From a virus, in UHGV virus genome UHGV-1885740: a DNA stretch of 14,785 bases. One strand, written 5' to 3'. Below the pieces are notes generated by a model. That model saw only the letters and a list, made by a program, of their open reading frames with translations, did no database searches and was not told the DNA's origin. Below are positions 7,692 to 12,124 of this stretch, piece by piece. The first letter of the stretch is position 1. Every line of letters starts with the position of its first letter. The translations under genes and the position numbers were made by a program.

Positions 7692-7717
7692 AGGGGCTTA
7701 AAGCCCCTTTCTTTTTG
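7692..7717 (+). terminator. intrinsic terminator closing the rightward gene module
   Basis: Stem AGGGGC/GCCCCT with loop TTAA followed by TTCTTTTTG. Confidence 0.8.
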
Positions 7718-8322
7718 TCTCCTCTTTTCCTACCACAAATGGCCCCGCCTGGCAAATGGAATAATCAACAAGCCAGCAATTAACCCCACTGTACAAACAT
7801 ACATATAAAATAACTATTGCATAATTTTTCATTGTGTGGTAGCAGGGCCATTTTTACACGTTTTTCCTTCCAAAATTGCACGTAATGCAGCATTTGCACA
7901 AAATTTAACCTGATGCATATCTTCAATAGCTTGTCAACAACTAAAAATTCTTATAAGTCATACACTTACATAACTACAAAAGCGTTTTCTACGTGAAAAA
8001 TCGAGTATAACTATAGCCGCCAGATCTCAGAATTTACGTACGCTCGCCATTCTATAGCCTGCTAAGCATTTATTCCAACCATAGAATAACGGAATAGTCA
8101 ATACCTGCATAAAATAATTATTCGTGTAAACTGCATAACATAAATCGGCCCAAGTGTCAACATTTTTCGTAAACAGTCTGGAATTGTCACGTTAGGTTAC
8201 CATAAGCAGAGAAATCTTTAGTCGTCTAATGTTTACTGTACGTTACTATACTAACTGGAATCATTAGATGACTAATAGAAAGATAAGAAATAATTAACAA
8301 TACAATTATTCTATCTGTAACA

Positions 8323-8593
8323 ATAAGGCAACTATGCAAACGAATGGCATGGCGCGACGGAGTCGCGACATAATATAAAAGCAGTAACCATCACCCCCGT
8401 GATAGTTTGTCTGCAATCTATTAATCAGATCATAGTTGCCTTGTATTCAGTTAATCATGACATAACAAGCAAGGCAACTATAGATCTGCTAATAGTTGCC
8501 CTGCTTTTATATTATGTCATGCTAATTATAATCAGTGCGATTATTGTCATGTATAATTATTGTCATGCAAACGAATGGCATGGCTTATCATTT
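8323..8593. repeat. nested inverted/direct repeat element (about 270 bp)
   Basis: AAGGCAACTAT at 8325-8335 and 8471-8481, with inverted copies at 8432-8442 and 8492-8501; 18-bp direct repeat TGCAAACGAATGGCATGG at 8335-8352 and 8566-8583; 18-bp perfect inverted repeat 8367-8384 / 8501-8518; palindrome CGCGAC-GGA-GTCGCG around 8354-8368. Confidence 0.8.
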
Positions 8594-8610
8594 TTGAGTA
8601 AATAATCTAT

Positions 8611-8716
8611 ACGTTAACAGTAAGCTATGTAAACTATTGGGAATGTAAACAGTAAAGGTCATGAACAGTAAGCGAGCGAATAGTAATAGCGTGAATAGTG
8701 ACAGCGTAAACAGTCA
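8611..8716 (+). repeat. tandem iteron-like array (about 7 units, 15-16 bp period, core GTAAACAGT / GAAYAGT)
   Basis: Cores at 8614, 8629, 8645, 8661, 8677, 8692 and 8706; further isolated copies in both orientations at about 8169, 8843, 8989 and 9719. Confidence 0.75.
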
Positions 8717-9298
8717 TGCATGTCAATTATGTTCAGTGTGTTTAATGTGCTTAAAGTGTCATATTATGTCAGACAAGTTTTTCTCCTCTTTGTCAAGTGC
8801 TGCATGAAAAATTTACAAGCTTGTATGGTAGCATTTTTGCGGCCCTGTTTACATTCAGTGTTGTATGTATAATCCTTGTTGTGTGGGCGTTTAGACGTCT
8901 GGACGGTCAGAAGTCTGCAGGTCAATATCTAATCTATTGGCTGCTAACTATATCCCCCCACAAATAATAAGAAATATAATTGTTATGTGCGTAAACAGTA
9001 ACCTATGTTATCAATCCCTGTATGTATCGCCAGTGGTGCGCATAATGGGTATTATGTTAAATTGCCCGTAATGATAAAGATTCTCACAATGATAGGTATT
9101 CTCATTCACCCTCACAAAATAGATTGCAAATGTTGTGCCACTGTGTGAACGGCCTCACCTATTAATTTGCCTCACTGCCTCGATATTTGAGAATTATTAT
9201 AAGAATGAGAAGTATTCCCATTCCGTCCGCCTGGCAGCACTCCAGTCGCTACCGCTCATGACAGGGCAGAACTGGGCCCATTCAGATATTTCTGACTG

Positions 9299-9567
9299 AC
9301 TCTTCAGGTCTGTGTGGGAAAAGACAACCTCTCCGGCGGGACAGGGGGATATCTGAGGAGAAATTGCAGGTCAATTAAAAAATTTACGTGGTGTATGAAG
9401 CGATCTTCAGGCAAGGTATGTATTATGGGATGAAACCCTCTTCAGGCAATGATATTTGTGGGTGTGATATTTGCTGGAAAGCCAGATATGACGGGACTCC
9501 CGGCGGGGCAGGGGTAGTACAGACAGGGAAAATATGGGGATGTAGTTGGGTAAATTGATCAGGCAGG
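9299..9567 (+). repeat. cluster of CTCTTCAGG-family motifs plus a GC-rich direct repeat CCGGCGGG(R)CAGGGG
   Basis: CTCTTCAGG at 9300-9308 and 9438-9446 (also 9850-9858 and 10500-10508); GATCTTCAGG 9402-9411; GATCAGGCAGG 9557-9567; CTCCGGCGGGACAGGGGG 9331-9348 against CTCCCGGCGGGGCAGGGG 9497-9514. Confidence 0.7.
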
Positions 9568-10210
9568 TAGAGTATGGAATATGTTACAGGTATGTTAAAT
9601 AGGGAGGCTGAATATCTGTAGGATTTGTGTGTAAAATCAAAGACTTAAGTGGTGTTGCGGTATTTTCTATAAATAATTCAAGTTTAATAGGTAATATTTG
9701 TCTCTATTCGCTTTGTGTGGTAAACAGATTCAGATGAGATTGGTTTACAAGTGTATACATAATATACAAATTAAAGATACAAGAAACCCCCTCCCCCTTC
9801 GGCTACCATTCACCTTTTCCTCTGACTGGTACTTAAACACTTATTCAGACTCTTCAGGTTATCACCCATATATCATATGGCAGTGACTGGTGTCCTCCGG
9901 CCCCTCTTTCGTCACCCGTCCGCTTCGCCATGCTAATGCCATAGCCAATGGTTCGGTTGTTCACCCTGTTCACTCAGGTGTATCTCCATACCCCTTCAAA
10001 CCGAAGAGAACAGAAAACCCGAATTACTCGGTAAAAGAAAAGAGAAGAACTTAATTTTATCAGGATAGGCAAGAATGTCAAGGCATGACTGCTCACTAAA
10101 CAAGCAAACAGTCATGTGTGGAAGGTAAGTGATTGTGGTGGTGGGAAATTTAGTTGAAAGATGTGTTATAGGTGCGCTTCCAGCACTTTGGCCGGGCAGC
10201 TAATTGTGCG

Positions 10211-11818: not shown

Positions 11819-12124
11819 TTATTCTACAGAGCGTTTGAACAGAATGTCTGCCTCGGACATGTGCTCAACCTCTTCTTCGATTTTAGCTCGACGTTTTTCA
11901 GCCTCATAGCGAATATCGAACTCGGTAGCCACCAAAGATTTGATGAATTTAGGAGAATACAGGTGATCCTGCTTCTCAACGAGAATGATATCCTTAATGG
12001 CATCTTTCAGATCTTTAATCTGAAGTTGGAGTTCCACCAGTTCTTCGATTGTCTTGCGAAGGCGATCACGCTCTGCAGTGTCAGAAGGAAGAGAGGTGAA
12101 CAGTTCAACTTTAGATTTAGCCAT
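11819..12124 (-). CDS. hypothetical charged, probably helical protein (101 aa)
   Basis: ATG with AAGGAG 9 nt upstream; ORF track; heptad-like E/K/L-rich sequence. Confidence 0.75.
   Translation of the reverse strand: MAKSKVELFTSLPSDTAERDRLRKTIEELVELQLQIKDLKDAIKDIILVEKQDHLYSPKFIKSLVATEFDIRYEAEKRRAKIEEEVEHMSEADILFKRSVE

What the first reader, a model, noticed from the sequence alone, without database searches (positions are those of the whole stretch)
8611..8716. Iteron-like tandem array with dispersed copies of the same core
About seven consecutive units with a 15-16 bp period share the core GTAAACAGT (variants GAACAGT, GAATAGT). The same core occurs singly, in both orientations, at about 8169, 8843, 8989 and 9719. 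Regularly phased short repeats in a non-coding region are typical binding arrays for an initiator, partition protein, repressor or terminase small subunit.
Basis: seen in the sequence. Interest (0 to 1): 0.7.

Follow-up and report, generated by a model that had tools for sequence, protein, structure and literature searches.

The report
Repeat array beside phage genome end
The regularly spaced short repeats are real, and they lie about 50 bases from the physical end of an rV5-like coliphage chromosome, so they are more likely part of the DNA-end cutting and packaging signal than a replication origin.

Summary
Eight same-strand units (core G-T-R-A-A-Y-W-R-T) lie at 8598-8714, spaced 15 or 16 bp. 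Simulated sequence never gave more than 3 clustered hits.

The window comes from an rV5-like coliphage (Vequintavirus). It covers the roughly 2.5-kb 'non-coding' box reported for rV5.

Among 18 relatives the array is the most variable part of an otherwise 91-100% conserved region. Unit number ranges from 3 to 9. Core and phase are kept and the spacers are free, which points to sequence-specific recognition.

The region holds the physical genome ends. A 459-460-bp direct terminal repeat (DTR) maps to window 8772-9231. This rests on the phage EdH4, Gotham and YN3 records and on Korf 2019. The array, plus a second TGTCA repeat with a 10-11 bp period that ends exactly at the cut, abuts the DTR on its unique side. 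T7 has the same layout, read here directly: a 160-bp terminal repeat followed by twelve CCTAAAG units at 12-13 bp.

A textbook origin candidate lies elsewhere in rV5, at about 65.1 kb, next to a gene that PHROGs and RefSeq label a replication initiation protein.

Best reading: a cis-acting element for concatemer maturation or packaging (confidence 0.45). Function is untested. It is a new member of a known kind and of moderate interest.

The parts
8598..8714 (+). Type-A array: eight 9-nt cores (consensus G-T-R-A-A-Y-W-R-T, extended to R-Y-G-T-R-A-A-Y-W-R-T) starting at 8598, 8613, 8629, 8645, 8661, 8676, 8691 and 8706, spaced 15 or 16 bp
   Evidence: Across 15 distinct array variants from 18 phages the spacing is 15 (43 times), 16 (23 times) or 30-32 (8 times). 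Core positions 4 and 5 are 100% A, position 1 is 98% G and position 9 is 99% T. Spacer positions carry 0.06-0.1 bit of information.
8716..8771 (+). Type-B repeats: (R)TGTCA units with a period of about 10-11 bp (TGTCA at 8721, 8757 and 8767, with decayed units between). The last unit ends exactly at the genome-end cut.
   Evidence: Relatives carry 1-7 TGTCA units, spaced mostly 9-11 bp. The window has 6 TGTCA on the + strand in 8500-8775 against 0.54 expected. The context TGTCA|GACAAGTTTT is invariant in 18 of 18 phages.
8772..9231 (.). Direct terminal repeat (DTR), held as a single collapsed copy in this assembly. The physical genome ends map to 8771|8772 and 9231|9232.
   Evidence: The EdH4 record carries an exact 459-bp repeat at both ends, equal to window 8772-9231. 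Korf 2019 reports 'short terminal redundancies of 458 bp' (PMC6563267). Gotham annotates repeat_region 1-459 and holds two copies; YN3 holds two copies. The Aya, ECP2303, bov11CS3 and bov25_3 records open exactly at these positions. The segment is 91-96% conserved.
8844..8852 (-). Single inverted copy of the core (CCTGTTTAC) inside the DTR
   Evidence: TGTTTACAT is kept in 18 of 18 relatives.
8991..8999 (+). Single direct copy of the core (GTAAACAGT) inside the DTR
   Evidence: The form GTAAAC[A/T/G]GT is kept in 18 of 18 relatives. It varies only at the position that is also degenerate in the array.
8169..8177 (+). Single direct copy of the core, 430 bp to the left of the array
9720..9728 (+). 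Single near-copy (GTAAACAGA), 490 bp beyond the other DTR boundary
   Evidence: kept in 15 of 18 relatives.
8565..8584 (+). Invariant anchor ATGCAAACGAATGGCATGGC (a second copy lies at 8334). The first array unit always starts 13 nt after it.
8318..8524 (.). Conserved region rich in inverted repeats, able to form a long branched hairpin or cruciform, about 75 bp to the left of the array
   Evidence: folding energy -51.1 kcal/mol, z-score -10.3. Inverted repeats are listed.
9244..9400 (.). Second variable zone, just outside the other DTR boundary (GGCAGCACTCC present once or twice, hairpin-like insertions)

Best explanation
The array is part of the cis-acting concatemer-junction element of an rV5-like phage whose chromosome has short direct terminal repeats (DTR).

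Shown:
- The chromosome ends lie at window 8771|8772 and 9231|9232.
- In the replicating concatemer, each DTR copy is preceded by the 9-mer array (15-16 bp period) and then by TGTCA repeats (10-11 bp period). The last TGTCA unit ends at the cut.

Inferred mechanism:
- A sequence-specific phage protein coats the phased repeats. The most likely candidate is the terminase small subunit, which has not been identified in these phages, or a partner of it.
- This marks the junction and positions the terminase large subunit.
- The large subunit then makes the two cuts, 460 bp apart, that T7-type packaging needs to give every chromosome a full repeat at both ends.

The 15.5-bp period equals 1.5 helical turns, so successive sites lie on alternating faces of the DNA. 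That suggests a filament or a wrapped oligomer rather than a flat one-sided array. Unit number is not critical (3-9 in relatives). The core and the phase are.
For: Position:
- The DTR boundaries are mapped by EdH4 (exact 459-bp repeat at both record ends) and by Korf 2019 (458 bp).
- Gotham annotates repeat_region 1-459, and YN3 also carries two copies.
- Four further records open exactly at 8772 or 9231.
- The array starts 52 bp from the boundary, and TGTCA units fill the gap up to the cut.

Selection:
- 15 array variants keep the core and the 15/16 phase, while spacers and copy number vary.
- The flanks and the DTR are 91-100% conserved. The only two variable zones lie just outside the two DTR boundaries.

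Analogy tested on sequence:
- T7 has a 160-bp terminal repeat. Twelve CCTAAAG-like units at 12-13 bp start 15 bp inside it, and further copies lie inside the repeat and before the right repeat.
- Justusliebigvirus BME3 and phi92 have a conserved DTR of 342-353 bp. CAACAAATAG repeats start at nt 343, and similarity between relatives ends there.
- PhageTerm calls the related Klebsiella phage KPP-1 'T7 type', with a 514-bp DTR (PMC9862379).

The array strand is less foldable than shuffled sequence (z +1.7), which fits a double-stranded protein-binding site.

The origin reading is weakened.
Against: - No protein has been shown to bind the array, and no terminase small subunit is recognisable in rV5.
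- The terminase large subunit gene is about 46 kb away, whereas many pac sites lie in or near the small-subunit gene.
- As far as I recall, the function of the analogous T7 arrays has never been established, so the analogy is one of layout, not of proven mechanism.
- Klebsiella phage KPP-1 (Mydovirus) has a homologous DTR end but no such array, so the array is not universally needed for this packaging mode.
- Several papers call Vequintavirus genomes circularly permuted or headful-packaged (PMC3606486, PMC8407724, PMC13211470).
- The termini are inferred from relatives, not from reads of this phage.
Confidence: 0.45

Rival explanations
1. The array is a binding site for another sequence-specific DNA-binding protein, of phage or host, that acts at the chromosome end but not in packaging. 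Possible roles are control of DNA ejection or entry, protection of the end, or regulation of transcription running across the junction.
For: Core and phase are conserved. The array lies within about 700 bp of one chromosome end. A strong sigma-70-like promoter on the - strand at 10081..10054 reads towards the junction. A 101-aa protein, labelled 'transcriptional regulator' by PHROGs and by several records, is encoded 3 kb away and is 100% identical across the genus. From memory only: TGTCA at an 11-bp period resembles PhoB boxes, and TGTTTAC resembles an OmpR half-site.
Against: No promoter-like site of any strength lies next to the array. The whole region has 15 promoter-like sites against 10.6 +/- 3.1 in shuffles. 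Both flanking gene blocks point towards the region, so there is nothing downstream to regulate. The 101-aa protein also occurs in genera that lack the array, and there it sits in a different gene context.
Confidence: 0.2
2. The array is a by-product with no function of its own: a minisatellite produced by slippage and recombination next to recombinogenic chromosome ends.
For: Copy number is hypervariable (3-9 units; 127-215 bp between invariant anchors). A second variable zone lies at the other DTR boundary. KPP-1 does without the array.
Against: Slippage copies whole units. Here the spacers are nearly random (0.06-0.1 bit over 67 distinct 17-mers), while four core positions are 98-100% fixed and the phase never departs from 15/16. 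The same core recurs as conserved single copies outside the array.
Confidence: 0.13
3. The array is a set of replication-origin iterons bound by a phage initiator, as the label 'iteron-like' suggests.
For: Its form is right: tandem direct repeats in non-coding DNA, with extra single copies nearby. The GC/AT skew changes sign here (rV5 paper). In T7, secondary origins lie beside the terminal arrays (from memory).
Against: - The non-coding region has no TTATCCACA-type DnaA box within one mismatch and a single exact match to the degenerate consensus at 9628. GATC is depleted, with 5 sites against about 13.6 expected.
- No initiator-like gene lies among the neighbours.
- The 15-16 bp period is unlike the usual 19-22 bp iterons.
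- The skew switch is explained by the convergent gene blocks.
- rV5 has a far better candidate at 65,100-65,236: an AT-rich run followed by four palindromic 21-22-bp repeats, 72 bp from the gene of an HTH_36 'replication initiation protein'.
Confidence: 0.08
4. The array acts as RNA. Transcribed across the junction, the unstructured repeats would work as a sponge for an RNA-binding protein.
For: A promoter-like site at 10081..10054 (-) points through the region. The array is unusually unstructured.
Against: No Rfam match was found. There is no evidence of a transcript. The mixed 15/16 period and the location at the DNA cut site fit a DNA element better.
Confidence: 0.04

Closest known systems
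Phage T7 short-repeat arrays flanking the terminal repeat (recalled as SRL and SRR in Dunn & Studier 1983; the sequence was read here)
   Same: Both have a short exact terminal repeat: 160 bp in T7, 459-460 bp here. On the unique side it is followed within tens of bp by about 8-12 same-orientation units with a conserved core and free spacers. Extra copies lie inside the repeat and near the other boundary (compared).
   Different: The core differs (CCTAAAG against GTRAAYWRT) and so does the period (12-13 bp against 15-16 bp). Here a second repeat (TGTCA at 10-11 bp) runs up to the cut. T7 is a podovirus with its own RNA polymerase, whereas this is a 137-kb myovirus. The function of the T7 arrays is, to my knowledge, unproven.
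Terminase small-subunit recognition sites next to the cut (lambda cosB R sites, SPP1 pacL/pacR, P1 pac hexamers); from general knowledge
   Same: These are repeated short recognition elements placed beside the terminase cleavage site, sometimes phased with the DNA helix.
   Different: Those sites lie in or beside the terminase genes and have proven binders. Here the terminase large subunit gene is about 46 kb away, no small subunit is identifiable, and binding is untested.
Replication-origin iterons (lambda ori, P1 oriR, plasmid Rep iterons)
   Same: These too are tandem direct repeats in non-coding DNA whose copy number varies between relatives.
   Different: The period is 15-16 bp rather than about 19-22 bp. 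There is no adjacent AT-rich unwinding element, DnaA-box cluster or initiator gene. A separate lambda-like candidate exists at about 65.1 kb in rV5.
Justusliebigvirus (phi92, BME3) terminal-repeat junction
   Same: The DTR is conserved (342-353 bp; annotated left and right repeats in phi92). It is followed immediately by short direct repeats (CAACAAATAG at 343, 365, 388 and 398 in BME3), and similarity between relatives breaks there (PMC12210895).
   Different: The repeat core and spacing differ (22-23 bp). No DNA similarity to the window's non-coding region was detected.

Membership tests
Short-repeat arrays flanking direct terminal repeats (T7 type) | The genome has short, exact direct terminal repeats with fixed ends | tested here: met
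   The EdH4 record has an exact 459-bp repeat at both ends, equal to window 8772-9231. Gotham annotates repeat_region 1-459, and YN3 carries two copies. Korf 2019 reports 458 bp. This is inferred from relatives that are 93-97% identical over the repeat; the cut contexts are identical in the window.
Short-repeat arrays flanking direct terminal repeats (T7 type) | The array lies on the unique side, within tens of bp of the repeat boundary | tested here: met
   The last type-A unit ends at 8714. TGTCA units fill 8716-8771. The boundary is at 8771|8772. In T7 the array starts 15 bp after the repeat.
Short-repeat arrays flanking direct terminal repeats (T7 type) | Same-orientation phased units with a conserved core and variable spacers, plus copies inside the repeat | tested here: met
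   (units). Copies at 8844-8852 (-) and 8991-8999 (+) lie inside the DTR.
Terminase recognition site (pac / cosB type) | Repeated elements adjacent to the terminase cleavage site | tested here: met
   The cleavage site is inferred from the mapped ends.
Terminase recognition site (pac / cosB type) | The site lies within or next to the terminase small-subunit gene | tested here: not met
   All neighbouring ORFs belong to PHROG families of unknown function, except one labelled regulator. The rV5 terminase large subunit gene is at 58.0-60.9 kb, against the non-coding region at 104-106.6 kb. No small subunit is recognisable upstream of it.
Terminase recognition site (pac / cosB type) | Specific binding by the small subunit and a requirement for packaging | not testable with these tools
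   This needs gel-shift or footprinting and a packaging assay.
Replication-origin iterons | Adjacent AT-rich unwinding element and/or DnaA boxes | tested here: not met
   No TTATCCACA match within one mismatch in 7700-10150, and one degenerate match at 9628. GC content of 8400-9000 is 0.34-0.37, with no discrete AT-rich block beside the array.
Replication-origin iterons | Initiator gene adjacent to, or containing, the iterons | tested here: not met
   No Rep-like domain was found in the 9 neighbouring ORFs tested. The only gene labelled as an initiator in rV5 (gp075) is about 40 kb away and has its own four 21-bp palindromic repeats.
Replication-origin iterons | Unit length or period near two helical turns (about 19-22 bp) | tested here: not met
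   The period is 15 or 16 bp in 66 of 74 spacings.
Partition centromere (parS / parC) | Adjacent parA/parB-type genes and a plasmid or prophage lifestyle | tested here: not met
   No such families appear among the neighbours. I know of no lysogenic or plasmid state in this group (my knowledge); a relative is described as lytic.

The most novel reading that the evidence does not exclude
The 9-mer array and the TGTCA repeats are the recognition module of a so far undescribed terminus-generating system in rV5-like and phi92-like myoviruses. An unidentified, non-canonical small terminase or junction-marking protein polymerises along repeats with 1.5-turn phasing and sets the two cuts 460 bp apart. 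The copy-number variation between strains tunes or diversifies this step, for example by affecting packaging competition between co-infecting relatives.
Probability: 0.3. Interest if true: 0.6.

Novelty: new member of a known kind. Interest (0 to 1): 0.45.

Why it matters
rV5-like phages are widely used as therapy and biocontrol candidates. Even so, their large 'non-coding' box has had no assigned function, and their genomes are often described as circularly permuted.

Placing the chromosome ends, the 460-bp terminal repeat and two flanking repeat arrays inside that box has three practical consequences:
- It gives a concrete, testable packaging signal.
- It shows where genome records should start.
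- It gives a short DNA probe (8590-8775) with which to look for the missing small terminase or junction-binding protein.

It also moves the likely replication origin to a different locus, about 65.1 kb in rV5.

Tried and rejected
- Rfam scan of the whole window at E <= 1: only two chance-level hits, neither in the region.
- Distant blastn of the non-coding region: matches only within the genus Vequintavirus, so no cross-genus DNA alignment was possible.
- IMG/VR pattern and protein scans: only one full relative was found.
- Using the conserved 101-aa neighbour to find the equivalent region in Mydovirus and Seunavirus: the gene sits in a different context there, so the attempt failed.
- Generic autocorrelation for phased repeats: not sensitive enough to mixed 15/16 periods. 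The window's value of 0.46 is about the maximum seen in shuffles, so I relied on the weight matrix and the spacing instead.
- Search for a small terminase upstream of the rV5 large subunit gene: the hits are families labelled spanins, or of unknown function.
- Literature searches for descriptions of the array or of the T7 arrays returned nothing usable. The statements about T7 array names and function therefore rest on my memory, although the T7 sequence itself was read.
- Promoter-cluster reading (TTTACA as a -35 element): only one weak site lies in the array.
- Coding reading: rejected because the length variation comes in 15/16-nt steps.
- Structured RNA or single-stranded DNA reading: rejected for the array itself (z +1.7).

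Full report
**1. What the window is**

The 2.3 kb around the finding matches 122 GenBank phage records at 91-96% identity. All are rV5-like coliphages of the genus Vequintavirus, including some records mislabelled as 'Campylobacter phage'.

In rV5 this stretch is the 2.6-kb box drawn as 'non-coding' between ORF163 and ORF164. It lies between two gene blocks that converge on it. The rV5 authors found a skew switch there but could not define an origin (PMC3606486).

The neighbouring ORFs in the window belong to PHROG families of unknown function. The one exception is a 101-aa protein labelled 'transcriptional regulator' at 11819-12124 on the - strand.

**2.

The array has eight units, not seven. 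The 9-mers start at 8598, 8613, 8629, 8645, 8661, 8676, 8691 and 8706, with spacings of 15, 16, 16, 16, 15, 15, 15.
- In 300 Markov simulations of a 14.8-kb sequence, the largest same-strand cluster within 130 bp was 3. The window has 8.
- The exact 9-mer GTAAACAGT occurs four times in the window, all between 8169 and 8999.
- In the whole rV5 genome it occurs four times in 138 kb, three of them in the array.

**3. Comparative anatomy**

I extracted the segment between two invariant anchors (CAAACGAATGGCATGGCT and GTCAGACAAGTTTTTCTCC) from 18 phages. They gave 15 distinct versions, 127-215 bp long, with 3-9 units.
- Every spacing is 15 (43 times), 16 (23 times) or 30-32 with a decayed unit in between (8 times).
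- The first unit always begins 13 nt after the left anchor.
- Over 67 distinct 17-mers the core reads R-Y-G-T-R-A-A-Y-W-R-T. Positions A4 and A5 are invariant, and G1 and T9 are 98-99% fixed. Spacer positions carry 0.06-0.1 bit. The core information values are inflated, because the units were picked with the matrix. The spacing regularity and the two informative positions outside the matrix are not affected by this.
- Slippage alone would copy the spacers as faithfully as the cores. The pattern therefore indicates selection for a recognised sequence at a fixed phase.
- The array strand folds less well than shuffled sequence (z +1.7), and the 15/16-nt steps destroy any reading frame. It is a double-stranded DNA element.

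**4. The decisive context: the chromosome ends**

A conservation profile over the whole non-coding region shows 91-100% identity everywhere except in two zones. These are 8500-8770 (the arrays) and 9244-9400.

Four independent records open at exactly two nucleotides. Aya and ECP2303 open at window 8772, and EdH4 and bov11CS3 open at window 9231.
- The EdH4 record carries an exact 459-bp repeat at both ends. That repeat is window 8772-9231.
- Gotham annotates repeat_region 1-459 and YN3 has 1-458. Both hold two copies, and bov25_3 also opens there.

The region is therefore the concatemer junction. A conserved direct terminal repeat (DTR) is flanked on both outer sides by variable repeat zones.

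Between the type-A array and the cut lies a second repeat, (R)TGTCA every 9-11 bp, with 1-7 copies in relatives. Its last copy ends at the cut, and the context TGTCA|GACAAG is invariant.

On the bottom strand the other cut reads TGCCA|GGC in 16 of 18 phages. This may be an inverted copy of the same cut motif. I noticed it after the fact, so it is only a lead.

**5. Comparison with known systems, tested on sequence**

T7, read from NC_001604:
- Its terminal repeat is 160 bp.
- Twelve CCTAAAG-like units at 12-13 bp run from nt 175 to 332.
- More copies lie inside the repeat (nt 17, 41, 60, 94) and before the right repeat.

In the EdH4/rV5 orientation the present locus has the same order: end, DTR, then array.

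The distantly related Justusliebigvirus group shows the same design with a different core:
- BME3 has a DTR of 342 bp (PMC12210895), and phi92 has annotated terminal repeats.
- CAACAAATAG repeats start at nt 343 in BME3.
- Alignments between relatives stop at about nt 353.

Klebsiella phage KPP-1 (Mydovirus) has a 514-bp DTR that PhageTerm calls 'T7 type' (PMC9862379). Its DTR also lies between convergent gene blocks, and its DTR end is homologous to this one. It has no GTAAACAGT array.

**6. Why not an origin**

The non-coding region has no DnaA-box cluster and is depleted in GATC. No initiator-like gene is nearby.

In rV5, 72 bp from the gene of gp075, there is an AT-rich run (65,100-65,148). 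It is followed by four tandem 21-22-bp repeats, each a palindrome TGTCCGTATCACGGACA. gp075 is a 116-aa protein whose HTH_36 match falls just below Pfam's threshold, and PHROGs and RefSeq label it 'replication initiation protein'. This is the classic lambda-like origin layout. It lies next to the divergent promoter region at 66.7 kb.

It is a candidate, not a proven origin. Even so, it removes the main reason to read the terminal array as origin iterons.

**7. Best explanation and its limits**

I take the array, together with the TGTCA repeats, to be part of the cis-acting signal for concatemer maturation or packaging. A sequence-specific protein would bind it and mark the junction for the terminase. 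I give this a confidence of 0.45.

Shown:
- the position at the mapped ends;
- conservation of core and phase;
- a layout shared with other phages that have terminal repeats.

Inferred:
- that a protein binds;
- that the protein is a terminase component;
- that the array is needed.

Against this reading:
- no small terminase is identifiable;
- KPP-1 lacks the array;
- the T7 arrays themselves have no proven role, as far as I recall;
- several papers call these genomes circularly permuted, which I think reflects library methods that hide fixed ends.

Rivals and their confidences: another end-associated DNA-binding function (0.2), a non-functional minisatellite (0.13), origin iterons (0.08) and an RNA sponge (0.04).

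**8. Novelty and verdict**

The DTR of Vequintavirus is published. I found no description of the arrays in the papers I searched and read.

This is a new member of a known kind: short-repeat arrays flanking terminal repeats. Its own features are the 15-16 bp period, the marked copy-number variation, and a second, helically phased repeat that ends at the cut.

Interest is moderate (0.45). The finding gives a previously unexplained 2.5-kb region a role and makes the packaging signal of a much-used phage group directly testable. It is not a surprise in principle.

Noticed in passing
window 8772-9231: This stretch is the direct terminal repeat of the phage, held as one collapsed copy. The physical chromosome ends map to 8771|8772 and 9231|9232. 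Several papers describe these genomes as circularly permuted.
   Followed up: yes
window 8716-8771: There is a second repeat type, (R)TGTCA every 9-11 bp, with 1-7 copies in relatives. The last copy ends exactly at the cut. On the bottom strand the other cut reads TGCCA|GGC, which may be an inverted copy of TGTCA|GAC (noticed after the fact). From memory, TGTCA at an 11-bp period also resembles PhoB boxes.
   Followed up: partly
L006 17100-17236 (rV5 65,100-65,236): An AT-rich run is followed by four tandem 21-22-bp repeats, each a palindrome TGTCCGTATCACGGACA. They lie 72 bp from the gene of gp075 (HTH_36, labelled 'replication initiation protein'). This is a lambda-like origin candidate that the rV5 paper did not find.
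   Followed up: partly
window 8318-8524: This conserved block of inverted repeats (CAAGGCAACTAT five times; an 18-nt perfect inverted repeat at 8367/8501) folds as a single strand at -51 kcal/mol, z -10.3. It is bracketed by two copies of ATGCAAACGAATGGCATGGC (8334, 8565). It may be a cruciform or hairpin involved in end processing, or an inserted element.
   Followed up: partly
window 8893-8916: Inside the terminal repeat, AGACGTCT GGACGGTC AGAAGTCT looks like tandem MetJ met-boxes (in rV5: AGACGTCTAGACGGTT). This is a resemblance from memory only.
   Followed up: no
window 9244-9400: A variable zone lies just outside the other repeat boundary. GGCAGCACTCC is present once or twice, with hairpin-like insertions of 40-70 bp in some phages. 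Further right are CTCTTCAGG (4 times) and CCGGCGGGRCAGGGG (twice).
   Followed up: partly
window 10054-10081 (- strand): A strong sigma-70-like promoter (TTGACA, 16-nt spacer, TAAAAT with an upstream TG; 11 of 12 matches) reads towards the terminal repeat, with no ORF downstream. From memory, T7 has a promoter (phiOR) placed similarly before its right end.
   Followed up: no
L014 (phage I29, ON286975.1), aligned at window ~9354: This record has a roughly 560-bp insertion containing a perfect palindrome and a second copy of the right end of the terminal repeat. It may be an assembly artefact caused by the chromosome ends, or a real duplication.
   Followed up: no
L032 343-475 (phage BME3): In Justusliebigvirus the conserved 342-353-bp terminal repeat is followed at once by CAACAAATAG repeats (343, 365, 388, 398), and similarity between relatives breaks there. 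This is the same design as in the window, with a different core.
   Followed up: partly
window 11819-12124 (- strand): This 101-aa protein (PHROG 639; labelled 'transcriptional regulator' or 'double-stranded DNA-binding protein' in some records) is at least 99% identical in 115 of the 225 matching records, essentially all the Vequintavirus ones, and 42-58% identical in other Vequintavirinae genera, where it sits in a different gene context.
   Followed up: partly
About 19 GenBank records named 'Campylobacter phage' (MG0656xx) are Vequintavirus coliphage sequences.
   Followed up: no
window 7700-10150: GATC is depleted in the non-coding region, with 5 sites against about 13.6 expected from the window average.
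   Followed up: no
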